NCBI GenBank assembly: GCA_965219955.1
Contig: OZ244799.1
Span: 3,744,001 to 3,808,000, forward strand
Source: a bacterium
GTDB taxonomy: Bacteria; UBA8248
Reading direction: 5' to 3'
Length of the DNA: 64,000 nucleotides
How positions within the stretch are numbered: position 1 is the first letter of the stretch; every line of letters begins with the position of its first letter. Of this stretch, positions 18,379-28,027 are shown piece by piece. A program made the position numbers and the translations under genes. The notes beneath the pieces are model-generated. The model ran no database searches. It saw nothing but the letters and a program-made list of their open reading frames with translations, and was not told where the DNA came from.

Positions 18379-19182
18379 ATGCCGTTCGTGACGCTGGAAT
18401 CAGGCCTTGAAATTTTTTATGAGATATATGGAGAGGGGCACCCCCTTCTGCTGGTGAGCGGAACGGGGCACGACCACACCTTCTGGTCGGCGCAACTGCC
18501 CCTGTTGAGCGCGGATTACCGCTGCGTCGTCATCGACAACCGGGGGGTGGGCAAGAGCACGGCGCCCCCTCCGGGATATACGCTCGCGGACATGGCGGAT
18601 GACGCAGCAGTCGTTCTGGACGCGGCCGGCGTGGAGCGCGCCCACGTGATGGGTTTTTCCATGGGGGGGCACATTTCCACCGAGCTCACGCTTCGCCACC
18701 CCGGGCGCGTTGTCAGCCTGGGGCTCCACCACACCTGGGCGAGGAACTGCCCGCGGCTGGGTTCTTTTCAGCGCGCCCGCATGCGCTTCGCCGCGCGCGG
18801 GGAGCGCGAGGCGCTCGTGGAACTGAGCCTCCTGGGGCTGTATTCCCATGAATTCTACGATGCGAACGCCGAGCTTATGGAGCAGAAAAGACGCTGGCTC
18901 ACCGAGCAATCCGGCGTCGACCTGGGATGGGAGGGGCAACTGCTCGCCTGCCTGGAAGGGGATACCCTCGAGCGTCTCCACCGGATACGAGTTCCCACGC
19001 TCATCACCTGTTCGGATCGCGACCTGATCGTCGACCCCCACCACGCGAAGGAAATCCACGAGCGCATCGAAGGCTCGAAGCTCATCATCATGGAGGGGAC
19101 GGGCCACGTGGCGCTCATCGAGCGGCCCGATGCCTTTGCGAGCATCTGCCATGAGTTCCTGGCCTCCCTGCCGCCGGGATAG
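18379..19182 (+). CDS. alpha/beta hydrolase
   Basis: DNRGVGKS, GFSMGG nucleophile elbow, D and GTGH triad positions. Confidence 0.92.
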   Translation: MPFVTLESGLEIFYEIYGEGHPLLLVSGTGHDHTFWSAQLPLLSADYRCVVIDNRGVGKSTAPPPGYTLADMADDAAVVLDAAGVERAHVMGFSMGGHISTELTLRHPGRVVSLGLHHTWARNCPRLGSFQRARMRFAARGEREALVELSLLGLYSHEFYDANAELMEQKRRWLTEQSGVDLGWEGQLLACLEGDTLERLHRIRVPTLITCSDRDLIVDPHHAKEIHERIEGSKLIIMEGTGHVALIERPDAFASICHEFLASLPPG

Positions 19183-19357
19183 AGAGTCACAGGCGACCGC
19201 CTGTCCGGGGCGAGTGACCGCCCGGCCCGACTTTCCTGGAGCGCCTGAAGCCGCCGCCGGTTTGACAAAAGCCCTGGGCTTGAGGCAAGAAAAAACGGTT
19301 TTATCCTCTTAGGTCATACAGCCGGACGGCATCGGGACCCGGAAAGCGAGGTGTGTC

Positions 19358-20008
19358 ATCCTCAAGAAGATTTTCGGCTGGTTCGCGCAAAAGAACGACC
19401 CCCCCTCGGGAGGCGGGTCTCCTCCTTCGGGTGGCGGCTTCGGCCTGCCCATGGCGCCGGACCAGGTGGAGCAGGAGGCCCTTTTCGCCGAAAAAATCGA
19501 AGCCCACGGTAAATGGCTGCAGAGTTCGGGCGCGCGCGGGGAGCGCGCCGACTTCTCTGGCGCGCATCTGGAGGCCATCAGCCTTTTCATGGTGAATCTC
19601 TCCAAGGCGGATCTGCGCGATGCGCGTCTCGCGGGCGCCAACGCGCAATGGGCGAACCTGGACGGGGCGGACCTCGCCGGCGCCAATCTCGAAGGGGCCG
19701 ATCTGTTCCAGTCCAGCCTCGAGGGGGCGAACCTCACCGGCGCGCGGATGGCCGGGGCGAACATGATGTCGGCGGATCTCAAGTTCGCGGATCTGGCGGG
19801 TGCCGACTTGAGCGGAGCCGACCTGCGCGGCGCCTCGCTCCAGCGGACGAAACTCGGGGGCGCGAACCTGGCGGACGCGCTCATCGACGACGCCGACCTG
19901 GAACTCGCCGACATCCGGGGCGTCGACCTCTCGGGCGTGAATGGCCTGACGCCCGAACAGGCCGAAGGCGCGCTCAAGGACGGCGAAACGCTCTTTCCGG
20001 ATGCCTAG
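19358..20008 (+). CDS. Pentapeptide repeat protein
   Basis: Long A(D/N)LxG repeats from 19550 to 19940. First ATG is 19451; an in-frame extension from ATC 19358 is proposed (see findings). Confidence 0.88.
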   Translation: MLKKIFGWFAQKNDPPSGGGSPPSGGGFGLPMAPDQVEQEALFAEKIEAHGKWLQSSGARGERADFSGAHLEAISLFMVNLSKADLRDARLAGANAQWANLDGADLAGANLEGADLFQSSLEGANLTGARMAGANMMSADLKFADLAGADLSGADLRGASLQRTKLGGANLADALIDDADLELADIRGVDLSGVNGLTPEQAEGALKDGETLFPDA

Positions 20009-20124
20009 AAAAGGTGATTTCAAAGACGTTTCGATTTCTTCCTCTCCCCCCTCCCGTCTTTTTCTTTTGCAGGATTCGGTTTATGATGAATTTTTTGGGA
20101 AACAATGAGCAGGAGTGACGCAGC

Positions 20125-21219
20125 ATGCCGCAGACGACGCAGATGGTGGACCAGGAAGTTGATTTGGTGGAGTACTACTACGAGCAGGGTTTCTCGGACG
20201 GGCTTCCCGTCGTCCCGCCCACGCCCGAGAAGATAGACGCCGCCGTCTCGGCCCTGGGCGGCGATAAAGACTACATCGAGTGCCGCGTGCCGCCTCGCTG
20301 GGGCAACCTCACGAGAGAGGTTCTGGCGATCAACATGGTGATGGCGGGCTGCAAGGCGGAGTACGCGCCCGTCGTCCGCGCGGCGATGCTCGCGCTTTGC
20401 GACCCCCACTTCAACCTGAACGGCGTGCAGGCCACCACCCACATGGCGTGCCCGCTCATCGTGGTGAACGGGCCGGTTCGCGGCGAGATCGGCATGAACG
20501 CGGGCTGCAACGTGTTCGGCTCGGGCAACCGCGCGAACGCGACGATAGGCCGCGCGGTGCGGATGATGCTCCTGAACGCCGGCGGCGCGTGGCCGGGCGA
20601 CTTGGACAAGAGCACCCTGGGCTGCCCCACGAAATACACCTACTGCATCGCCGAGAACGAAGAGGCCAGCCCCTGGGCGCCCTACCACGTGGAACAGGGC
20701 TACGCGCCCGAGGATTCCACGGTCTTCGCTATCGCCGCCGAGGCGCCCCACAGCGTGACGAACCACATCTCGGATGATCCCGAGGGCATCCTCGACAGCA
20801 TCTGCTCGGCGATGAGCACCATCGCGCATAACAATTCTGTGAGCAGCGGCTCGTGCGCCGTCGTCATCAGCCCCGAGCACGGGGCGACCATCAGCGCGAA
20901 GAACTGGACGCGAAACGACGTGAAGAGCTATCTGTGGATGCACACAAAGAACACGTTCGCCGATATCTCGTTCAACCACCGCTACGGGAAGGTCTACAAC
21001 CGCAACATCCCCAAGTGGTACAGGCGGGAGCCTGACGAGAGAATCCCCATCGTTCCCAGTCCCGAGAACATCCACCTGTTCGTGGCGGGGGGGGAGGCGG
21101 GCCGTTTTTCGGCTTTCATTCCCGGCTGGGGCCACATGACGAACCCGGTGCTGCGCGCAATCGACGGAAGAGCGCTCGAAGGCGGCCCCGTCTGCGTGGA
21201 CGGCACCTGTCTGCTATAG
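20125..21219 (+). CDS. Cys-rich conserved hypothetical protein, partner of the UGSC selenoprotein
   Basis: DGLPVVPPT, NMVMAGC, GNRANATIGRA, AENEEASPW; C-terminal CVDGTCLL; AGGAG SD. Confidence 0.85.
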   Translation: MPQTTQMVDQEVDLVEYYYEQGFSDGLPVVPPTPEKIDAAVSALGGDKDYIECRVPPRWGNLTREVLAINMVMAGCKAEYAPVVRAAMLALCDPHFNLNGVQATTHMACPLIVVNGPVRGEIGMNAGCNVFGSGNRANATIGRAVRMMLLNAGGAWPGDLDKSTLGCPTKYTYCIAENEEASPWAPYHVEQGYAPEDSTVFAIAAEAPHSVTNHISDDPEGILDSICSAMSTIAHNNSVSSGSCAVVISPEHGATISAKNWTRNDVKSYLWMHTKNTFADISFNHRYGKVYNRNIPKWYRREPDERIPIVPSPENIHLFVAGGEAGRFSAFIPGWGHMTNPVLRAIDGRALEGGPVCVDGTCLL

Positions 21220-21247
21220 CGTTTGGAATAGAAACCAGGAGGAAACC

Positions 21248-21790
21248 ATGAGTGACGTCATGACCGGCCAGGTCGTCTACGACCCCAGAGGGGTGGTCGA
21301 GGCCGAGGCGCAACCCACCGCAGAGCGCGTCCGGAATTTGAAGGGTCTCAAACTCGGGGTCCTGGACAACACGAAGTGGAACGGGCGCAGGCTGCTCGAA
21401 AAAACCACGGCGCTGATGGAGGCGGAAGGCCCCTTCGCCGAAGTGCATTACTACAAGAAAGAGAGCTTTTCCAAGAACGCGGCGCCTGAACTGATCGCCC
21501 GGATCGCGGAGGAGAACGACGTCGTCCTGACGGCGATTGGCGACTGAGGCTCCTGCACCTCGTGCTGTATGCACGATGCGGTCTCCCTGGAAGAAAAAGG
21601 GGTGCCCACCGCCGTGGTGGTGACGGAGGTTTTCCTGCACGAAGCCCACGTGCAAAGGGCGGCACTGGGGATGAACGACCTCGACCCCGTGGTTATCCAA
21701 CACCCCCTGAGCACGCTCTCGGATGAGGAAATCTCCGCGCGCGCGGGCGATGCGGCTCGCCAGGCGGTGAAGATTCTGCTCGAAGGCTAG
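21248..21790 (+). CDS. UGSC-family selenoprotein (Sec at codon 100, TGA 21545-21547), 180 aa
   Basis: ORFs 21248-21547 and 21569-21790 are in the same frame and join as DVVLTAIGD-U-GSCTSCCMHDAVSLEEKGVPTAVV; SECIS-like hairpin follows. Confidence 0.9.
21553..21581 (+). promoter_or_regulatory. Putative bacterial SECIS element
   Basis: CUGCA-CC-UCGUGC[UGUAU]GCACGA-UGCGG; the loop begins 18 nt after UGA with G at loop position 2. Confidence 0.7.
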
Positions 21791-21801
21791 TCCGGCTTTT
21801 C

Positions 21802-23034
21802 ATGACGAAGCCATTAGAAGGCATCCGCGTCCTCGACCTGACGCAGTTTCTCTCAGGCCCGCAGGCCACGCTTTTTCTGGCGGGGCTGGGGGCCGAGGTC
21901 ATCCGGATCGACAATCCGGCCACGGGCGACCCGGTGGCCTATTCTCCTCCCTATATCGGCGAGAAGGGCGTCTCCTACCATCCCCAGACGGATGAGGACC
22001 TGGGAATGGCCTACTTGAAGCGCACGCGCGCGAAAAAGGCGATTACCCTGAACATCAAGGACCCCCGGGGTCTCGAGATGTTCTACGGGCTCGTCGATCG
22101 CTCCGACATCCTGGTGGAGAATTTCTCCGTCGGCGTCACGAAAAGGCTTAAAGTTGACTACGAGACGCTTCACGCGCGGAAACCCTCCCTGGTCTACTGC
22201 TCCATCACGGGCTACGGCCAGACGGGGCCGGATGCGGGCCTCAAGGGCTATGACGCCGTCTCACAGGCGGCTTCCGGCCTCATGAACCTCACGGGCTTTC
22301 CCGACGGCCCGCCCACCAAGGCGGGCTCCGCGCTCGGCGACAGCGTGGGCGGCACGTTCGCCTTCGGCGCCATCATGACGGCGCTCTTTCACCGCGAGCG
22401 CACCGGGGAGGGCCAGCAGGTCGACATCTCGATGATCGACTGCATCTTCTCGCTGATCTTCGATGAGCCGATGGATTTTTACGAACAGCTGGGCCTCCCG
22501 CCGCGCATCGGCAACCGCATCATGCGGCTCGCCCCGTTCAACGCCTATGAGACGAAAGACGGCTGGGTCATCATCGCCTCGGGCACCAACGCGCACTGGC
22601 ACAACATCCTGCGCGGCATCGAGCGCCCCGAATTGATCGGCGATGAGCGTTACGAGGACATGAGCCGGCGCGTGAGCAGAGTCGCGGAAGTCGACGCCAT
22701 CATCACCGAATGGACGAAGCGCCGCGAGGCGAAAGAAGCGGTCTCTTCCCTGCGCGCGCACGACGTCATCTGCGGGCCGGTGAATAATATCCACGACATC
22801 CTCGCCTGGCCCCACATGCAGGAACGCGGGATGATAGTCGACATCGAACACCCCACCCTCGGAACGCTCAAGAACGCGAAAGCCCCGGGCTTTCCCTTCA
22901 AGTTCAGTGAAATAAAAGGCGGCTACGCCGCCCCCGCTCCGCTCGTGGGCCAGCACAACGCGGAGATCCTCGGCGGTCTTCTCGGCGTATCGGACGCGGA
23001 ATTGAAAGAGCTGGCGGATGAGGGTGTGGTCTAG
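21802..23034 (+). CDS. Class III CoA-transferase (CaiB/BaiF family)
   Basis: PLEGIRVLDLTQFLSGP, LGAEVIRID, DILVENF, CSITGYGQTGP, GYD, LGD catalytic Asp. Confidence 0.95.
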   Translation: MTKPLEGIRVLDLTQFLSGPQATLFLAGLGAEVIRIDNPATGDPVAYSPPYIGEKGVSYHPQTDEDLGMAYLKRTRAKKAITLNIKDPRGLEMFYGLVDRSDILVENFSVGVTKRLKVDYETLHARKPSLVYCSITGYGQTGPDAGLKGYDAVSQAASGLMNLTGFPDGPPTKAGSALGDSVGGTFAFGAIMTALFHRERTGEGQQVDISMIDCIFSLIFDEPMDFYEQLGLPPRIGNRIMRLAPFNAYETKDGWVIIASGTNAHWHNILRGIERPELIGDERYEDMSRRVSRVAEVDAIITEWTKRREAKEAVSSLRAHDVICGPVNNIHDILAWPHMQERGMIVDIEHPTLGTLKNAKAPGFPFKFSEIKGGYAAPAPLVGQHNAEILGGLLGVSDAELKELADEGVV

Positions 23035-23070
23035 GGGGGCATGAAGAGCGGAGCCTTCGGGTGTTCAGCC

Positions 23071-23862
23071 ATGCGGCATTTTATCTTTCTACTGGTGCCG
23101 GTTTGTTTTCTCTTATCGGGCTGCGCCGCCGGGGTCGACCCCAAGACGCTCGACTTGGCCGATGAGGCGAGCCGCACCTTCGACGCCGCCTACGTCATGC
23201 TCGGGGCAGAGGGCGCGCTCATCGAAGGCAGGATGAGCGACGATTTCGTTCAGCGAAAACTCGCGAGCCTCAAGAAAAAACGCCCCACCGTCGTTTTCGC
23301 GCACGGCTGCACCGGGCTGGGCCGGGGAAACTTGCGCTATATGCGGCTTCTGGCGCGGGCGGGATACGCCGTCATCGCGCCCGACAGCTTCGCCCGCCGC
23401 TATCGTCCCGAAACCTGCGATCCTTCCCGGCGCCGAGGCATAAAGGGAGCGCCGCACCGGCGGGTGGGCCGAATGCGGCAGGAGGAGATCCATCACGCGG
23501 CGTACCGCGTCCGGCGCATTCGGTGGGTGGACCGGAAAAACCTCTTCCTGATGGGACACAGCCAGGGCGGCACCGCGGTCGCCGCTTACGAAGGGGATGG
23601 GTTCAAGGCCCACGTCATCAGTGGTTCCGTATGCTGGCGCGGCGTTCGGTCGCCAAACGGGACGCCCATCCTGGCCTTGTACTCAGAAGACGACCCCTGG
23701 CGGCGGGGCAGGCCTGCCGATTCTTGCCTGCGAAAGGCCAGGGCGCGGGGTGTGAGCATGGCGTTTCATCTCTTCGAGGGCCGGGCGCACAATCTCTCGC
23801 GCAACGAGCAGGCGCGGCGGCTGATTCTCGATTTTCTGAACCGGCACCGCAGAACGGAATAA
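23071..23862 (+). CDS. Dienelactone-hydrolase-family lipoprotein
   Basis: LSGC lipobox, HGCTG, PDSFARR, GHSQGG, GRAHN. Confidence 0.8.
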   Translation: MRHFIFLLVPVCFLLSGCAAGVDPKTLDLADEASRTFDAAYVMLGAEGALIEGRMSDDFVQRKLASLKKKRPTVVFAHGCTGLGRGNLRYMRLLARAGYAVIAPDSFARRYRPETCDPSRRRGIKGAPHRRVGRMRQEEIHHAAYRVRRIRWVDRKNLFLMGHSQGGTAVAAYEGDGFKAHVISGSVCWRGVRSPNGTPILALYSEDDPWRRGRPADSCLRKARARGVSMAFHLFEGRAHNLSRNEQARRLILDFLNRHRRTE

Positions 23863-24001
23863 AATCGCTTCAGGACGCGTCTTGACGTTTCGAGTGTAGT
23901 TGGTTTTCCTGGAACGCTGTTTCACGAGCGGTGCGGCATCGCCCGCGCCCCTGTGGTAGGATTCCCCTTGTCGCGGACTTGAAACCTGGAGGCTCATCTT
24001 C

Positions 24002-24988
24002 ATGCGAATCTGCACTTTCAGCCTGGCGGGCGAGGCGCGCATCGGCGTGTTGTTCGGGGAGAAAATCGCCGATCTCAAGCTGGCCTACGCCCTGTCGCTC
24101 GATGAGGAAACAGCGGCGGAGGCGATGGATCGCGTCGAGGCCGAGGTCCCCGATGATTGCGAGGAGTTCATCGAGGACCTGGAGCTGAACCGTCCTCTCG
24201 CCGAGGAAGCTATTGAGGCGCTCGAAGCGCACGGGAGCAAAAAGGACCCGGTTCGCTTCGACGGCATGCAGGTCGTCTATGAGCACGGTGAAGTCGAGAT
24301 TCTTCCCCCCGTCGTGCCGGACACGCTGTTTTGCATGGCGAGGAACTATGTGGCCCACGCCGCCGAGATGGCGCGCACCGAAGTGGATGATTTCAAGGAA
24401 GAGCTCCCGCTCTACTGTTTCCTGAAGCCCGCCACGTGCGTGAGCGGCCCGTATGAGGACGTGCCCGTCTATCCCTCGATGGAAAAGCTCGATTATGAAC
24501 TCGAACTCGGCGTGCTCATCGGACAGGGCGGCAAGAATATCCCCGTGGACAGGGCCATGGACCACGTGGGCGGCTACACCCTGTTCAACGACATGAGCGA
24601 CCGCACGAGCCTCAACATGGGAAAGTTCATCGACTGGTACGCCATGAAGGCGCCCGACGGCTTCGCCCCCATCGGCCCCTGTATCCTGCTTCCCGAGGAG
24701 GGCCTCGACCCCCACGATTTGAGACTCAAGCTCTGGGTGAACGGCGAACTGAGGCAGGACGCCACCACGGGCGACATGGTCTGGCGGGTCGCCGAGCAGG
24801 TATCGTATCTGTCGGGGATAGCGACCTTGCGGACGGGTGACATCATCGGCACCGGCTCTCCCGCCGGCAACGCCGCCTCGTGGGGGGAATATCTCCAGCC
24901 GGGCGACCTGATAGAGGGCGAAATCGAGGGCATCGGGCGCCAGGCCTTTCGGATCAGGAGCGAAAACCCCGAATATACGCCGGGCTAG
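24002..24988 (+). CDS. Fumarylacetoacetate hydrolase family protein
   Basis: RNYVAH, FLKP, LDYELEL, GYTLFNDMSDR, K..DGFAPIGP, GDIIGTGSPAG. Confidence 0.93.
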   Translation: MRICTFSLAGEARIGVLFGEKIADLKLAYALSLDEETAAEAMDRVEAEVPDDCEEFIEDLELNRPLAEEAIEALEAHGSKKDPVRFDGMQVVYEHGEVEILPPVVPDTLFCMARNYVAHAAEMARTEVDDFKEELPLYCFLKPATCVSGPYEDVPVYPSMEKLDYELELGVLIGQGGKNIPVDRAMDHVGGYTLFNDMSDRTSLNMGKFIDWYAMKAPDGFAPIGPCILLPEEGLDPHDLRLKLWVNGELRQDATTGDMVWRVAEQVSYLSGIATLRTGDIIGTGSPAGNAASWGEYLQPGDLIEGEIEGIGRQAFRIRSENPEYTPG

Positions 24989-25082
24989 TTCTCCCGGCGG
25001 TTGATTCGCACCCGTTTGCGCATTAAGATTTTCGCATCGATCAATGGAATTCCGAATTGCTGAAACCCGAGAGGGGACCCTC

Positions 25083-26450
25083 ATGAATCCAGCCATAGCC
25101 GAAGCCGAATCCCTGCGGACGATGGACAAGGAACACGTCTGGCATCCGCTCATGAACCATTCCGGGATGGAGGAGAATCCCCTCGACGTCGTGGTCAAGG
25201 CCAAAGGCTCGACCATCCAGGACGCCTCCGGCAGGGAATACATCGACGCCATGGCGGGACTCTGGTGCGTGAACATCGGCTACGGGCGCGACGAGGTGGC
25301 CAAGGCGGCGTACGAGCAGATGCTTGAGCTGGCCTACTATCCGCTGACGCAGGTGAATCCCCCCGCGGCCAGGCTCGCCGAGCGGCTGGCGTCCCTGCTG
25401 CCCGAGGGGGTCGAGCGCGTCTGGTTCGTGAACTCGGGTTCTGAAGCCGTGGACACGGCCATCAAGCTGGCCCGCGCCTATGGCCGCCTGAACGGCGGGC
25501 GGCGGTACAAGATCATCGCCCGCCACCAGGGCTATCACGGGGCGACCATCGGAGGCGCCAGCCTCACCGGCCAGACGCTCCGGCGCGCGATGTTCGAGCC
25601 GCTTCTGCCGGGCGTGATTCACGTGAGCGCGCCCTATTTCTACCGAAGCAACGCGGACACCGAGGAAGAACTCGCGCGGCGGTGCGCGGACGAGTTGGAT
25701 GAGGTCATCCGCTACGAAGACCCCGAGACCGTGGCGGCGTTCATCGCGGAGCCCGTCATCGGCGGCGGGGGGGTGATTCCCCCGCCCGCGGATTATTTGA
25801 AGCGCATGCGCGAGGTGTGCCGGAACCACGGCGTGCTGTTCATCGCCGATGAGGTCATCACCGGCTTCGGGCGCACGGGGGAACTCTTCGCCTCCGATCT
25901 GTACGAGATCGAGCCGGACATCATGACGATGGCCAAGGGGCTGAGCAGCGCCTATCTGCCCATCGGGGCGACGGCGACCACGAACGAGATATTCGAAGCC
26001 CTGAACGCCGAGGGAGACTCGGGCTTTCTGCAGATAAACACCTACGGCGGACACCCCGTCGCCTGCGCGGCGTCGCTCAAGAACCTCGAGATCATGATGG
26101 AAGAGGAGTTGCCCGCGCGCGGCGCCAAGGTGGGCGCATATCTCGGCGGGCTTTTGGGGAAACTCTCCGACATCCCCTGCGTGGGCGACGTGCGGGGCGT
26201 GGGCCTCATCTGGGGGGTGGAGTTGATAGAAGAGAGCGGCGCGCCGCTGTCCACGGCGGCCACGGCGAAGGTGCTGGCCTACGCGAAGGAGCAAGGCGTG
26301 ATCTTCGGCAAGAACGCAGGCATCGCCGCCGGCCCTTCGAACACCGTCACCCTCAGCCCGCCGCTGGTCTTGACCGAAGAAGAAGCCGAGCGCGCCGCCT
26401 CCGCTCTCGACACCGCATTGCGCCGCGTCCAGGCTGAGAGCGGCGCCTGA
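25083..26450 (+). CDS. Class III (omega-amino acid type) PLP aminotransferase
   Basis: DAMAGLWCVNIGYG, SGSEA, YHGAT, FIADEVITGFGRTG, MAKGLSS, TYGGHP. Confidence 0.95.
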   Translation: MNPAIAEAESLRTMDKEHVWHPLMNHSGMEENPLDVVVKAKGSTIQDASGREYIDAMAGLWCVNIGYGRDEVAKAAYEQMLELAYYPLTQVNPPAARLAERLASLLPEGVERVWFVNSGSEAVDTAIKLARAYGRLNGGRRYKIIARHQGYHGATIGGASLTGQTLRRAMFEPLLPGVIHVSAPYFYRSNADTEEELARRCADELDEVIRYEDPETVAAFIAEPVIGGGGVIPPPADYLKRMREVCRNHGVLFIADEVITGFGRTGELFASDLYEIEPDIMTMAKGLSSAYLPIGATATTNEIFEALNAEGDSGFLQINTYGGHPVACAASLKNLEIMMEEELPARGAKVGAYLGGLLGKLSDIPCVGDVRGVGLIWGVELIEESGAPLSTAATAKVLAYAKEQGVIFGKNAGIAAGPSNTVTLSPPLVLTEEEAERAASALDTALRRVQAESGA

Positions 26451-26498
26451 TGCGATAGCCGATCACTTATCCCGCACATCATTTCAGGGAGATTTCAT

Positions 26499-27161
26499 AT
26501 GTCCAACATCACCATGCTCGACATCGAGGATCTGAAGAAGACGAAACTCGCTCCTTTCCTCAACAAGGCGCTCAAGCACCGCGCGCCCGACCCCGCCTTT
26601 CACGCCATGCAGGGCCACAACGAGGATCTGGCGAAGTCGATGTACCTCGCCTGGGGCACGGTGTTCAACACCGGCGTGATCGATCACAAGCTCAAGGAGA
26701 TCATCCGCGTCCAGCTCTCGCGCCGCGCCTTTTGCAACTACTGAGGGAACGTGCGCTCTGCTTCGGCGAAGCAGGCCGGCTTGACGGAAGAGATGATAGA
26801 CGAGGGCATCGACAACTGGCGCGAGAGCGAGCTTTTCACCGAGGCCGAAAAGCTGGCGCTCGAATACAGCGAACTCATGGATTCCGAGCCCGAGAAGATC
26901 GACAAGGCCTTCTACGCGAGGCTGCGCGAGCACTACTCGGATGAGGAAATCGTGGAGCTCGGCTCCTTCATCGGCTTCAACGTGGGCTACCACACCTTTT
27001 TCAGAACGCTCGATTTCTACCCCATGTTCACCCCCGACGGCAGGCTGGTGAGCCAGGAGGAATCGCGCCGCATCTACGGCGATTGCCCCGTATCGCACAT
27101 GAGCGGCCCGCTCGAACGCGCGATCGCAGAGGGCGAGGCGCAACGGGCAAACGGAAGTTAG
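26499..27161 (+). CDS. AhpD/carboxymuconolactone-decarboxylase-like selenoprotein, CxxU (Sec at codon 82, TGA 26742-26744), 220 aa
   Basis: ORFs 26499-26744 and 26751-27161 join in frame as LKEIIRVQLSRRAFCNY-U-GNVRS. The joined protein is colinear with the uninterrupted paralogue downstream; SECIS-like hairpin follows. Confidence 0.9.
26757..26775 (+). promoter_or_regulatory. Putative bacterial SECIS element
   Basis: UCUGCUUC[GGC]GAAGCAGG; the loop begins 20 nt after UGA with G first. Confidence 0.7.
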
Positions 27162-27170
27162 GAGGGGACC

Positions 27171-27776
27171 ATGCCGATTATCGATCCGCTCGAACCCGAA
27201 GCGATTGAAGAGAAGAACTGGAAGCGCGTCATGGAGCGCACTGCCGAGACCCACGCGCCCGATGCGCTCTTCTCGCGCATCATGGCCCATGCGCCCGGCT
27301 ACGCCGACGCCCTGCACGACGCGATGCACCGCTCCCACGCCATGGGCGGGGTGGACCACAAGCTCAAGGAGATGGTCCGCATCCAGCTCGCCAGGACCGC
27401 GCAAGACACCTACTTCGCGAACCTTCGCTCCGAGCAGGCGAAAAAAGAGGGCCTGACGGAAGAACGCATCGAGGCCGCCTGCGGGGATTTCGAGAACGAC
27501 CCGCAGTTCACCGAAGCCGAGAAGTGGGCGCTCCGGTTTTCCTACTGGATGTACCGCGACGCCGCGAGGCTCGACAAGGATTTCTACGACGAGGGCAAGA
27601 AGCACTTCACCGAAGCCCAGATCATGGAGATCGGCGCGATGGTGGCGCTTCACTACGGCCTCCAGGTCTTCATGCGCACGCTCAAGGCCTATCCGCTCCA
27701 CGATCCGGAGGGAAACCCGGTGACGCAGGCGCAGTCCGAGCAGATTTACGGGAAAGACGTGCCCCTGCCTTCTTGA
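27171..27776 (+). CDS. AhpD/CMD-like protein lacking the redox residues
   Basis: DHKLKEMVRIQLARTAQDTYFANLRS aligns to the upstream selenoprotein with C->D and U->F; FTEAEK, HFTEAQIMEIG; GGAGG SD. Confidence 0.88.
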   Translation: MPIIDPLEPEAIEEKNWKRVMERTAETHAPDALFSRIMAHAPGYADALHDAMHRSHAMGGVDHKLKEMVRIQLARTAQDTYFANLRSEQAKKEGLTEERIEAACGDFENDPQFTEAEKWALRFSYWMYRDAARLDKDFYDEGKKHFTEAQIMEIGAMVALHYGLQVFMRTLKAYPLHDPEGNPVTQAQSEQIYGKDVPLPS

Positions 27777-27794
27777 GTTTCGCCATCGAGTGAA

Positions 27795-27824
27795 AAGCGC
27801 CCGCCGACCGGCGGGCGTTTTTTT
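27795..27824 (+). terminator. Intrinsic terminator
   Basis: GCGCCCGCC-GACC-GGCGGGCGT followed by a T run. Confidence 0.85.
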
Positions 27825-27866
27825 ATGCGGCTTGAAGTGCCGGATGGCGCACAATTCCGGGGAATC

Positions 27867-28027
27867 GGGACTTGTTGAAAAAGTCCTTCGCGAGGAGGGA
27901 GGGAATCCCGATCATCGAATTGTTTGCCGTAGGGACAGGCCTCCGTGCCTGTCCTGACGAAGGACAACCACGGAGGGTTGTCCCTACAACCGCCAATTCT
28001 CCTTTATCGGACTTTTTCAACAACCCC
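27867..28027. mobile_element. MITE-like element carrying a GTAG-type REP doublet
   Basis: Perfect 15-bp IR TTGTTGAAAAAGTCC / GGACTTTTTCAACAA. The internal 85 bp (GTAGGGACAGGCCTCCGTGCCTGTCC...) is near-identical to 31500-31585. Confidence 0.75.

What the first reader, a model, noticed from the sequence alone, without database searches (positions are those of the whole stretch)
20125..23034. UGSC selenoprotein operon: a candidate uncharacterised selenium-dependent reductase system
Seen: three tightly spaced genes (gaps of 28 and 11 nt) encoding a Cys-rich 364-aa protein, a 180-aa protein read through TGA (TAIGD-U-GSCTSCC) and a class III CoA-transferase. Known: UGSC-motif selenoproteins are a recognised family with no established function. 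As I recall it, the Sec region of glycine/betaine reductase GrdB reads roughly VILTST-U-GTCTRC...EIERAGIPVV, which resembles VVLTAIGD-U-GSCTSC...SLEEKGVPTAV here. Inference: a two-component GrdB/PrdB-like enzyme whose selenolate attacks a substrate, coupled to CoA activation.
Basis: partly seen in the sequence, partly recalled or inferred. Interest (0 to 1): 0.8.

Follow-up and report, generated by a model that had tools for sequence, protein, structure and literature searches.

The report
UGSC selenoprotein with obligate partner enzyme
This is a real selenocysteine-containing gene of the long-known but unexplained UGSC family, and it almost always travels with, is sometimes fused to, and is predicted to bind a large uncharacterised partner protein, which makes the family's function testable as a two-subunit enzyme.

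Summary
Genes A (20125-21219, 364 aa), UGSC (21248-21790, in-frame TGA = codon 100) and a family III CoA-transferase (21802-23034) lie 28 and 11 nt apart.

- **Sec is real.** The genome holds tRNA-Sec, SelA, SelB and SelD. All 8 UGSC paralogues and 80 of 80 orthologous loci in other genomes keep TGA, followed by a conserved hairpin.
- **A is the true partner.** A belongs to a large family with no Pfam or NCBIfam model (4,877 50%-identity clusters). It is adjacent or fused in 7 of 8 paralogues here and upstream in 74 of 80 orthologous loci. Fusions occur in both orders. Presence and absence match exactly in 51 genomes of the phylum. The complex prediction scored 0.81 against a best control of 0.00, with the Sec loop in the interface.
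- **GrdB/PrdB likeness is weak and local.** It covers only the Sec segment (hhalign E 7e-5). A is unrelated to GrdE/PrdA.
- **CoA-transferase linkage is partial.** It holds in 34 of 74 orthologous loci and 2 of 8 paralogues.
- **Redox tail.** This orthologue group carries a C-terminal CxxxxC tail on A (75 of 75), which suggests a thiol/selenol relay.

Best reading: a two-subunit selenol/thiol reductase of unknown substrate. The family is known; the system-level picture appears new.

The parts
20125..21219 (+). Gene A: 364-aa partner subunit from a large uncharacterised family. Invariant residues are D25, G75, G142, R143, E177 and G322. C76 is present in 15 of 15 paralogues in this genome and C174 in 12 of 15.
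   Evidence: ORF. No Pfam or NCBIfam hit. 4,877 representative clusters. Conservation. Confident model, pLDDT 92.5, with no clear match to a solved fold.
21193..21210 (+). Codons 357-362 of A: a C-terminal C-x-D-G-x-C tail, two residues before the stop, in the low-confidence flexible end of the model.
   Evidence: CxxxxC followed by 2 residues and the stop in 75 of 75 orthologues with a complete C-terminus. It is absent from the other 14 A paralogues of this genome and present in 7 of 67 members of alignment A1. pLDDT is below 50 for residues 361-364.
21237..21242 (+). AGGAGG ribosome-binding site, 5 nt before the UGSC start codon.
   Evidence: Read directly from the sequence.
21248..21790 (+). 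UGSC-family selenoprotein gene, 180 aa when TGA is read as Sec; motif U100-G-S-C103-T-S-C106-C107.
   Evidence: Model pLDDT 92.5, five parallel beta-alpha units with Sec at the end of strand 3 and start of helix 3.
21545..21547 (+). In-frame TGA = selenocysteine codon 100.
   Evidence: TGA in 8 of 8 paralogues and 80 of 80 orthologous loci. Cys stands at this column in 119 of 121 aligned full-length sequences (the window's own read-through row, written with C, among them). The Sec machinery is present.
21560..21576 (+). SECIS-like hairpin: a 6-bp stem and 5-nt loop (UGUAU), with 12 nt between the UGA and the stem.
   Evidence: Consensus structure over 69 distinct sequences, with no broken pairs and only pairing-compatible changes. 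Comparable hairpins follow the TGA of all 8 paralogues. Folding of the window's own copy gives z = -1.69, so on its own it is weak.
21802..23034 (+). Family III (CaiB/BaiF) CoA-transferase, 410 aa, a facultative third gene of the module.
   Evidence: PF02515, E 1.6e-114. Below all NCBIfam equivalog cut-offs. The closest solved chain is succinate--hydroxymethylglutarate CoA-transferase 9br7, E 2.7e-77.

Best explanation
Genes A and UGSC encode the two subunits of one selenoenzyme.

The small UGSC subunit is a five-stranded parallel alpha/beta domain. It carries Sec100 and Cys103 (U-x-x-C) at the end of strand 3 and the start of helix 3, and it is a distant relative of the Sec-bearing segment of GrdB/PrdB.

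The large A subunit comes from an undescribed family. I propose that it supplies the substrate pocket, using its invariant D25, C76, R143 and E177. The Sec loop and the conserved N-terminal tail of UGSC dock onto A next to N70, M73 (with C76 close by in the sequence) and T104/T105.

Proposed cycle (inferred, not shown):
1. The selenolate attacks an electrophilic carbon of a carboxylate or acyl-CoA substrate.
2. Cys103, or C76 of A, resolves the adduct and leaves a selenenylsulfide.
3. In this orthologue group the bond is re-reduced through extra cysteines (C106/C107 of UGSC and the C357-x4-C362 tail of A) by a thioredoxin-type donor.

The downstream CoA-transferase would activate or recycle a dicarboxylate substrate or product in this particular version. 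The genome's seven other UGSC genes, six beside an A gene or fused to one, sit in different catabolic operons and would act on other substrates.
For: **Shown: Sec is decoded**
- tRNA-Sec, SelA, SelB and SelD are present.
- TGA is kept in 8 of 8 paralogues and 80 of 80 orthologous loci.
- The hairpin after the TGA is conserved.

**Shown: A and UGSC belong together**
- In this genome 7 of 8 UGSC genes are directly beside an A paralogue or fused to one.
- A lies upstream on the same strand within 1,500 nt in 74 of 80 orthologous loci. These span Nitrospinota, Tectomicrobia, Chloroflexota, Alphaproteobacteria, Burkholderiales, Eremiobacterota, SAR324 and Acidobacteriota.
- 36 of the best 150 A-family representatives carry UGSC sequence: 15 full UGSC-A fusions, 16 that start with the post-Sec half, and 4 in A-UGSC order that end exactly at ...GD, just before the Sec codon.
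- The same 43 of 51 genomes of the phylum hold both families, and the same 8 lack both.

**Predicted: the two bind**
- ESMFold2 complex of window A with a 63%-identical stand-in UGSC scored 0.81 in each of three runs, best of 3 controls 0.00. The runs share at least 90% of contacts and the partner's pLDDT is at least 87.
- In the tool's calibration this mark was reached by 51 of 78 solved complexes and 2 of 108 mismatched pairs.
- The interface contains the Sec position and its neighbours (stand-in residues 99-101 and 103-105). On A it contains residues 55-63, 66, 69-70, 73, 97 and 99-105.

**Redox hints**
- U/C100 and C103 are each conserved in at least 90% of UGSC sequences.
- The CxxxxC tail is present in 75 of 75 orthologues of A.

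**Remote likeness to GrdB/PrdB:**

**Metabolic context**
- Acyl-CoA enzymes lie beside 4 of 8 paralogues.
- In other phyla the neighbours include a CoA-transferase, acyl-CoA dehydrogenases, enoyl-CoA hydratases and MmgE/PrpD.
Against: - No activity, substrate or redox partner is shown.
- The complex used a stand-in from another organism that carries W at the Sec position, and it was folded without alignments.
- The GrdB/PrdB likeness is only 62% probability over 71 columns and far below the family cut-offs.
- A has no relation to GrdE/PrdA, so the pyruvoyl chemistry of those reductases cannot be carried over.
- One paralogue has UGSS, with no Cys at +3. Some fused Cys-type relatives lack both cysteines. 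The U-x-x-C redox pair is therefore not universal in the family.
- Four orthologous loci with at least 4.6 kb of upstream flank show no adjacent A (L061, L079, L082, L084).
- Neighbours are heterogeneous: peptidases, transporters, luciferase-like oxygenases, and in some loci AhpC, DsbA or glutaredoxin.
Confidence: 0.55

Rival explanations
1. A general thiol/selenol-disulfide oxidoreductase or antioxidant pair. UGSC acts like a thioredoxin or peroxiredoxin-type redox protein and A is its client or reductase. This is the reading implied in the selenoproteome literature.
For: The U-x-x-C motif fits. Zhang and Gladyshev 2008 (PMC2398784, passages read) call the protein 'likely' Trx-like in fold. 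One source names an Entotheonella homologue of A 'Thiol-disulfide ...' (P0055). AhpC, DsbA or glutaredoxin genes lie near the pair in L077 and L090. An AhpD-like selenoprotein lies 4.7 kb downstream in the window.
Against: The model has five parallel beta-alpha units, not a thioredoxin topology. A carries invariant D, R and E residues typical of a substrate pocket. Eight paralogues, seven of them with an A gene beside or fused, sit inside different catabolic operons, which argues for substrate-specific enzymes rather than housekeeping redox proteins.
Confidence: 0.15
2. A non-redox enzyme, such as an isomerase, racemase, epimerase or lyase. Sec100 and a cysteine (C76 of A or C103) serve as a nucleophile or acid-base pair acting on unsaturated or alpha-substituted acyl-CoA or dicarboxylates.
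For: Neighbours are enzymes that make or use enoyl- and methyl-branched acyl-CoAs: acyl-CoA dehydrogenases, enoyl-CoA hydratases, MmgE/PrpD and a family III CoA-transferase. C76 is invariant in all 15 A paralogues. One paralogue lacks the +3 cysteine (UGSS). The comparison with two-cysteine racemases and with maleate isomerase is recalled, not tested.
Against: The strictly conserved C-terminal CxxxxC tail of this orthologue group (75 of 75) and the extra C106/C107 are hard to explain without redox turnover. The Sec segment resembles that of reductases.
Confidence: 0.15
3. A metal or iron-sulfur site at the subunit interface. U100/C103/C106/C107 of UGSC together with C76/C174 of A bind a cluster or metal, and A acts as a hydro-lyase-like subunit.
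For: The spacing U/C-x2-C-x2-C-C resembles the start of a ferredoxin motif, and 8 of 52 UGSC members hit NapF weakly. The only whole-chain structural hints for A are class I (Fe-S) fumarate hydratases: Foldseek E 5.4e-4 with TM 0.22-0.27, and 7xky_A with Z 5.5, rmsd 5.4 A and 195 residues aligned. In the seven A paralogues of this genome that are not next to a UGSC gene, N70 becomes H in 7 of 7 and T105 becomes M or L in 6 of 7. These are possible metal ligands close in sequence to C76.
Against: C106 is variable and C107 is specific to this subfamily; most paralogues read UGSCTSWS. The motif lies at the start of a predicted helix. The structural matches are at chance level for this aligner (Z below 8).
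Confidence: 0.1

Closest known systems
UGSC-containing selenoprotein family (Pfam PF24696, NCBIfam NF041046; Zhang and Gladyshev 2007/2008)
   Same: It is a full-length match above both curated cut-offs, with the UGSC motif at the family's conserved position and Sec encoded by TGA. The 2008 paper already notes a fusion of UGSC with a conserved 'Unknown_1' domain (PMC2398784, passages read).
   Different: Nothing differs as far as membership goes. Beyond what I found in print, this work adds the partner family's size, the near-obligate adjacency, fusions in both orders, the predicted interface, the GrdB/PrdB-like Sec segment and the CxxxxC tail. I could not open Figure S1 of the 2008 paper (a PDF supplement), so the identity of 'Unknown_1' with family A is presumed, not checked.
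Selenoprotein B of glycine/betaine/sarcosine and D-proline reductases (GrdB, PrdB; PF07355, TIGR01917, TIGR04483)
   Same: Sec sits at the end of a beta strand, followed by a helix and an LE-x-x-G-[IV]-P-T strand. U-x-x-C also occurs in this genome's three PrdB-like proteins. The profile alignment puts Sec on Sec. Like those enzymes, it works with a second, larger subunit.
   Different: Scores are far below the family cut-offs, and the Pfam GRDB model gives no hit. UGSC lacks the long N-terminal parts of GrdB and PrdB. The partner A is unrelated to the pyruvoyl proproteins GrdE and PrdA. This genome has a separate GrdE-GrdB-like pair. No solved GrdB or PrdB structure was found by sequence for comparison.
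C-terminal redox-shuttle tails of class Ia ribonucleotide reductase R1 (CxxxxC) and thioredoxin reductase (recalled, not tested here)
   Same: A has a flexible C-terminal tail with two cysteines four residues apart, close to the end of the catalytic subunit. It is strictly conserved in this orthologue group.
   Different: There is no sequence or fold relation; this is an analogy only. The tail is absent from the other 14 A paralogues in the genome.
Succinate--hydroxymethylglutarate / succinate--glutarate family III CoA-transferases
   Same: ORF C matches PF02515 over its full length. The best solved relative is 9br7 (E 2.7e-77). The best NCBIfam models are succinate--glutarate and succinyl-CoA:mesaconate CoA-transferases.
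   Different: It falls well below the equivalog cut-offs (285 against 750 bits, 279 against 700), so substrate specificity is not assigned.

Membership tests
UGSC family (PF24696 / NF041046) | Score above the curated cut-off of the family models | tested here: met
   PF24696 197.7 bits (cut-off 25) and NF041046 157.7 bits (cut-off 125).
UGSC family (PF24696 / NF041046) | U/C-G-S-C motif at the conserved position | tested here: met
   U100-G-S-C103. At this column 119 of 121 aligned sequences read C, counting the window's own read-through row, and 80 of 80 orthologous loci have TGA.
UGSC family (PF24696 / NF041046) | Sec decoding is possible: tRNA-Sec, SelA, SelB, SelD and a hairpin after the UGA | tested here: met
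   Machinery. Hairpin (69 distinct sequences, no broken pair, no compensatory double change). Sec insertion itself cannot be tested with these tools.
GrdB/PrdB selenoprotein B (PF07355, TIGR01917, TIGR04483) | Score above the curated cut-off of the family models | tested here: not met
   TIGR04483 16.3 bits against 300 and TIGR01917 13.8 against 602.2. No PF07355 hit among 52 members at E up to 1.
GrdB/PrdB selenoprotein B (PF07355, TIGR01917, TIGR04483) | Sec segment homologous, with Sec aligned to Sec | tested here: inconclusive
   hhalign of A2 against A3: probability 62%, E 7.4e-5, 71 columns, position 100 aligned to 350. 45 of 52 members hit PrdB and 16 of 52 hit GrdB below threshold.
GrdB/PrdB selenoprotein B (PF07355, TIGR01917, TIGR04483) | Partner is a GrdE/PrdA-type pyruvoyl proprotein (PF09338) | tested here: not met
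   No PF09338 hit in 67 members of family A. hhalign of A1 against this genome's GrdE-like protein gives probability 0.15%.
GrdB/PrdB selenoprotein B (PF07355, TIGR01917, TIGR04483) | Three-dimensional similarity to GrdB/PrdB | not testable with these tools
   No solved GrdB or PrdB chain was found by sequence.
Thioredoxin-fold oxidoreductases (suggested in the literature) | Thioredoxin fold | tested here: inconclusive
   The model is five parallel beta-alpha units. The best structural matches are flavodoxin-like or periplasmic-binding-protein-like, with Z 9-11.
Family III CoA-transferase (PF02515), ORF C | Full-length match above the cut-off | tested here: met
   383.3 bits (cut-off 23.3), profile positions 1-366 of 366.
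Family III CoA-transferase (PF02515), ORF C | Assignment to a characterised specificity (NCBIfam equivalog) | tested here: not met
   The best scores are 285.3 against 750 and 279.1 against 700.
Class I Fe-S hydro-lyases (fumarate hydratase), considered for A | Shared fold over most of the chain | tested here: inconclusive
   Foldseek E 5.4e-4 but TM 0.22-0.27. 7xky_A gives Z 5.5, rmsd 5.4 A, 195 residues aligned.

The most novel reading that the evidence does not exclude
A-UGSC defines a new class of two-subunit selenol/thiol-dependent reductases. It would combine a catalytic subunit of previously undescribed fold with a minimal GrdB/PrdB-like Sec domain. It would have radiated into many substrate-specific pairs (eight UGSC genes and fifteen A genes in this genome) acting on carboxylates and acyl-CoAs in aerobic and marine bacteria. 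[quoted passage not shown]
Probability: 0.35. Interest if true: 0.8.

Novelty: new variant of a known kind. Interest (0 to 1): 0.6.

Why it matters
[quoted passage not shown] A 2026 review groups them with the many selenoproteins, known from bioinformatics, whose functions remain largely uncharacterised (PMC13188914).

If the selenoprotein is one half of a two-subunit enzyme, its other half is a very large family with no Pfam or NCBIfam model and at least 4,877 clusters. Two unknown families then become one testable object. The complex can be co-expressed, and the catalytic residues to mutate are named: U100 and C103 of UGSC, and D25, C76, R143, E177 and the CxxxxC tail of A. Operon contexts such as the CoA-transferase, acyl-CoA dehydrogenases and enoyl-CoA hydratases suggest substrate classes to screen.

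In three of the 20 loci whose neighbours I scanned with Pfam, the pair lies beside selA, selB or selD (L050, L062, L090). This raises the possibility, not tested here, that it is a main reason for keeping the Sec trait in those genomes.

Tried and rejected
**Searches that gave nothing useful**
- PDB by sequence gave nothing for UGSC or for A, whether as single sequences or as profiles.
- Foldseek and VIA-align showed only generic flavodoxin-like or Rossmann-like matches for UGSC. No GrdB, PrdB or thioredoxin chain appeared in the lists shown.
- For A the matches were sub-threshold only. Its C-terminal domain, about residues 202-340, resembles the common chorismate-mutase/YjgF/IspF-type alpha+beta arrangement at Z about 6.
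- The ESM Atlas returned only A's own unnamed clusters and nothing usable for a Cys-form UGSC homologue.
- Rfam, run at E up to 1 over 19000-28000, gave only one chance-level sRNA hit.
- The promoter and terminator scan found nothing between the three genes.

**Complex prediction**
It was run instead with single sequences and a stand-in partner.

**A second TGA, rejected as Sec**
- The A paralogue at G000:C1:2356179-2357234 has a TGA near its end. I considered a second Sec and rejected it. It sits where the other paralogues stop, it is followed by low-complexity sequence, and the downstream fold (-12.3 kcal/mol) shows no hairpin of the type that follows the UGSC TGAs.

**Sequencing runs**
- Three metatranscriptome runs from one study hold contigs 90-95% like the locus. 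Some bridge the A-UGSC junction, and others bridge the TGA and the UGSC-CoA-transferase junction.
- These contigs come from a relative, may include DNA, and do not show a single transcript. They are therefore not used as evidence.
- Parts of the CoA-transferase gene had no cover.

**Errors corrected**
- A column-mapping error was corrected.
Full report
**1. Observation**

- Gene A runs 20125-21219 and encodes 364 aa.
- The second frame, 21248-21790, is interrupted only by a TGA at 21545-21547. This is codon 100, in the context TAIGD-U-GSCTSCC.
- Gene C runs 21802-23034 and encodes 410 aa.
- The gaps are 28 and 11 nt. AGGAGG lies 5 nt before the second start codon.

The family matches are clear.
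- The read-through product matches Pfam UGSC (PF24696) at E 2.1e-58 and NCBIfam NF041046 at 157.7 bits against a cut-off of 125.
- Gene C is a family III CoA-transferase (PF02515, E 1.6e-114). It falls below every NCBIfam equivalog cut-off.
- Its closest solved relative is a succinate--hydroxymethylglutarate CoA-transferase (9br7, E 2.7e-77).
- Gene A matches nothing in Pfam or NCBIfam, and no family recurs among the weak hits of 67 family members.

**2. Selenocysteine is real here**

The window lies in a single 4.28-Mb contig. The genome encodes the full Sec machinery:
- tRNA-Sec (aragorn);
- SelA (509.9 bits);
- SelB (390.1 bits, above its cut-off);
- SelD, which itself contains one TGA.

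The TGA is conserved wherever I looked.
- The genome has eight UGSC genes, each with exactly one in-frame TGA.
- Eighty related loci were fetched from other genomes, 61-96% identical to the window protein. They come from Nitrospinota, Tectomicrobia, Chloroflexota, Alphaproteobacteria, Burkholderiales, Eremiobacterota, SAR324 and Acidobacteriota. All 80 have TGA at this codon.
- Database proteins that gene callers managed to call full length are the Cys forms. In the alignment of 120 of them with the window's own read-through protein (written with C), 119 of 121 rows read C at this column.

A hairpin follows the codon.
- It has a 6-bp stem and a UGUAU loop, with 12 nt between the UGA and the stem.
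- It is kept in 69 of 69 distinct sequences, with only pairing-compatible changes and no broken pair.
- There is no compensatory double change, and the region also codes for protein. The structure evidence is therefore supportive rather than decisive.
- Comparable hairpins follow all eight paralogous TGAs.
- From memory, not tested here: the G and U at positions 23-24 counted from the UGA match the loop bases needed for SelB binding in E. coli fdhF.

**3. The real partner is gene A**

A has 15 paralogues in this genome. Their relation to the eight UGSC genes is as follows.

| Arrangement | UGSC genes |
|---|---|
| A directly before UGSC | 2 |
| A directly after UGSC | 4 |
| Fused into one 536-aa frame with one TGA | 1 |
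| No adjacent A | 1 |

The eighth UGSC gene has four tandem A genes 4.4 kb away, beyond a xanthine-dehydrogenase-like gene and a transposase.

Across other genomes the linkage holds.
- A lies upstream on the same strand within 1,500 nt in 74 of the 80 orthologous loci.
- Of the six exceptions, L047 has too little upstream flank held and L039 has a partial A 1.6 kb away. Four loci (L061, L079, L082, L084) show none within at least 4.6 kb.

The family is very large and is often fused to UGSC.
- An exhaustive HMMER search finds 4,877 representative clusters at E up to 1e-3 and 1,240 at E up to 1e-30.
- Of the best 150, 36 carry UGSC sequence:
  - 15 are full UGSC-A fusions;
  - 16 start with only the post-Sec half, so they are Sec-type fusions cut by gene callers;
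  - 4 are A-UGSC fusions that end exactly at ...GD, just before the Sec codon;
  - 1 is a fragment.
- Fusion in both orders is classic evidence for a physical complex.

Phyletic distribution agrees.
- In 51 genomes of the phylum, the same 43 hold both families and the same 8 hold neither.
- Kin are not independent, so this is consistent with the model rather than a statistical proof.

**4. Structure and complex**

Both models are confident, each with pLDDT 92.5.

UGSC:
- It is built of five parallel beta-alpha units. Sec100 sits between strand 3 and helix 3.
- Its structural neighbours are generic flavodoxin-like or periplasmic-binding-protein-like folds, with Z 9-11.

A:
- It has no convincing match to any solved structure; the best Z is 6.4.
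- Its C-terminal domain resembles a common alpha+beta arrangement.
- Class I fumarate hydratases appear weakly over the whole chain.

The complex prediction supports binding.
- I used window A with P0122 as a stand-in for UGSC. P0122 is 63% identical, comes from another organism, and carries W where the window has Sec.
- The score was 0.81 in each of three runs, against 0.00 for the best of three controls.
- The runs agree in at least 90% of contacts, and the partner's pLDDT is at least 87.
- In the tool's calibration this mark was reached by 51 of 78 solved complexes and 2 of 108 mismatched pairs.
- This supports binding but does not show it.

The interface has these parts.
- On UGSC: the conserved N-terminal tail (stand-in residues 4-18) and the Sec position with its neighbours (99-101, 103-105).
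- On A: residues 55-63, 66, 69-70, 73, 97, 99-101 and 103-105.
- This region of A includes the near-invariant P57, T63, N70, M73 and T105, and it is close in sequence to C76.

Conservation in A points to an active site.
- C76 is present in 15 of 15 paralogues, as are D25 and R143. E177 is present in 14 of 15.
- Within this genome, the seven A genes directly beside a UGSC gene or fused to one all have N70. The eighth (4064177), which follows the fusion gene, has C70.
- The seven A genes not next to a UGSC gene all have H70, and six of the seven have M or L at position 105.
- The interface residues therefore track the presence of a partner. This rests on one genome only.

**5. Relation to GrdB/PrdB**

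The genome has its own relatives of these reductases.
- There is a GrdE-like/GrdB-like pair, in which the GrdB-like protein has 438 aa and Sec at position 350.
- There are also three PrdB-like small selenoproteins.

The comparison gives a weak, local signal.
- hhalign of the UGSC alignment against these four proteins gives E 7.4e-5 and probability 62% over 71 columns. Sec aligns to Sec, and the following LE-x-x-G-[IV]-P-T strand and H/Y-P motif also align.
- 45 of 52 UGSC members hit TIGR04483 (PrdB) weakly and 16 of 52 hit TIGR01917 (GrdB) weakly.
- The Pfam GRDB match on the genome's GrdB-like protein stops at residue 349, just before its Sec at 350. This may be why no UGSC member hits PF07355.
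- I read this as a probable distant relationship limited to the Sec segment. It is not family membership.
- A is unrelated to GrdE/PrdA.
- No solved GrdB or PrdB structure was found for a fold comparison.

**6. Clues to chemistry**

- U/C100 and C103 are each conserved in at least 90% of UGSC sequences.
- This orthologue group additionally has C106 and C107 in UGSC.
- It also has a C-x-D-G-x-C tail two residues from the C-terminus of A. The tail is present in 75 of 75 orthologues, absent from the other 14 paralogues, and lies in the flexible end of the model.
- By analogy with the C-terminal cysteine tails of ribonucleotide reductase and thioredoxin reductase (recalled), this suggests a dithiol shuttle that re-reduces an active-site selenenylsulfide.

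Gene context varies but leans towards acyl-CoA and carboxylate catabolism.
- In this genome:
  - the window has a CoA-transferase;
  - L015 has a TRAP transporter, a CoA-transferase and an enoyl-CoA hydratase;
  - L010 has two acyl-CoA dehydrogenases;
  - L013 has two enoyl-CoA hydratases and an acyl-CoA dehydrogenase;
  - L012 has peptidases and a peptide transporter;
  - L011 has a dehydrogenase and a luciferase-like oxygenase.
- In other phyla the neighbours include acyl-CoA dehydrogenases, enoyl-CoA hydratases, MmgE/PrpD, amidases and amino-acid transporters.
- A family III CoA-transferase follows UGSC within 500 nt in 34 of 74 orthologous loci.
- The substrate is unknown.

**7. Literature**

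- The UGSC-containing protein has been listed since 2007 as a selenoprotein of unknown function (PMC1976440, passages).
- In 2008 it was reported as one of the major ocean selenoprotein families, 'likely' Trx-like in fold, and fused in some sequences to an 'Unknown_1' domain (PMC2398784, passages).
- A 2026 review lists it among the many selenoproteins, identified by bioinformatics, whose biological functions remain largely uncharacterised (PMC13188914, passages).
- Two full-text searches, 'UGSC' with 'selenoprotein' and 'UGSC' alone from 2015, returned no title or abstract on its function. I read passages in only three of these papers.
- Figure S1 of the 2008 paper is a PDF supplement that I could not read. 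Its 'Unknown_1' is probably family A.

**8. Verdict**

- The gene is a new member of a known family, so the bare observation is not novel.
- The system-level picture is new as far as my searches go. It comprises an obligate partner from a huge unannotated family, an interface that contains the Sec loop, a Sec segment like that of GrdB/PrdB combined with an unrelated partner, and a redox tail.
- This picture turns an old unknown into a concrete two-subunit enzyme hypothesis.
- The chemistry and the substrate remain inferred.

Noticed in passing
window 26499-27161 (+), TGA at 26742-26744: A second selenoprotein candidate lies in the window. It is a single frame with one in-frame TGA in the context FCNY-U-GN (a CxxU motif). 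The read-through product matches Pfam CMD (PF02627, E 6.5e-7), so it is an AhpD-like selenoprotein.
   Followed up: partly
G000:C1:1275828-1277141 (L099:1492-2805) and L099:111-1394: The genome also encodes a GrdB-like selenoprotein of 438 aa with Sec350 (PF07355, E 4.7e-116). It is directly preceded by a GrdE-like protein (PF09338, E 4.6e-106). This is unexpected for a lineage whose nearest public records are labelled Nitrospinota.
   Followed up: partly
L100:1399-2289 (G000:C1:3740457-3741347, 2.7 kb before the window starts), L101:1405-2313, L102:1231-2028 (-): There are three PrdB-like small selenoproteins with a U-x-x-C motif (PV-U-PLC or PA-U-GLC). L100 read whole matches only the last third of the Pfam GRDB model; the other two were seen as genome matches to the same part of the model. 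With SelD, the eight UGSC genes and the AhpD-like gene, this is a selenoprotein-rich genome.
   Followed up: partly
A paralogues at G000:C1:874876, 2330220, 2356179, 3601871-3606009: The seven A paralogues that are not next to a UGSC gene all have His instead of Asn at position 70, and six of the seven have Met or Leu instead of Thr at position 105. These positions lie in the predicted UGSC-binding surface, close in sequence to the invariant C76. They may be a partner-independent, perhaps metal-dependent, subtype.
   Followed up: partly
L050 2710-4707 and 6523-8874; L062 547-3800; L090 1659-3470: In an alphaproteobacterial record (L050), one labelled uncultured proteobacterium (L062) and a Burkholderiales record (L090), the A-UGSC pair lies directly beside Sec-machinery genes. 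These are selB in all three, selA in L062, and a pyridine-nucleotide-oxidoreductase-SelD fusion in L050. The arrangement looks like a mobile Sec-trait island built around this selenoprotein.
   Followed up: no
L014:9210-10817 (-) = G000:C1:4065209-4066816: A natural UGSC-A fusion occurs in this same genome, as one 536-aa frame with one TGA at codon 99 (motif V-U-GGCTSW). Another standalone A gene follows it.
   Followed up: partly
L013 10003-11433 and L017 12537-13967: Both loci contain a 476-aa open reading frame with the same length and the same codon-position GC values. The L013 copy matches the DDE transposase family PF13701 at E 2e-152; the L017 copy was not scanned or aligned. One lies between a UGSC gene and its four tandem A genes. 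This looks like an insertion element that may have split that cluster.
   Followed up: no
window 37159-37235 and 37359-37434: tRNA-Ile(GAT) and tRNA-Ala(TGC) lie 123 nt apart (aragorn on the genome). This is the usual spacer pair of a ribosomal RNA operon, so an rRNA operon probably lies in the window.
   Followed up: no
window 18379-20008 and 23041-26450: In the closest relatives, the A-UGSC-CoA-transferase genes are flanked in conserved order by other genes. Upstream are an alpha/beta-hydrolase and a pentapeptide-repeat protein. Downstream are a dienelactone-hydrolase-like protein with a lipoprotein-type signal sequence and a fumarylacetoacetate-hydrolase-family protein. In the window a class III aminotransferase follows.
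   Followed up: partly
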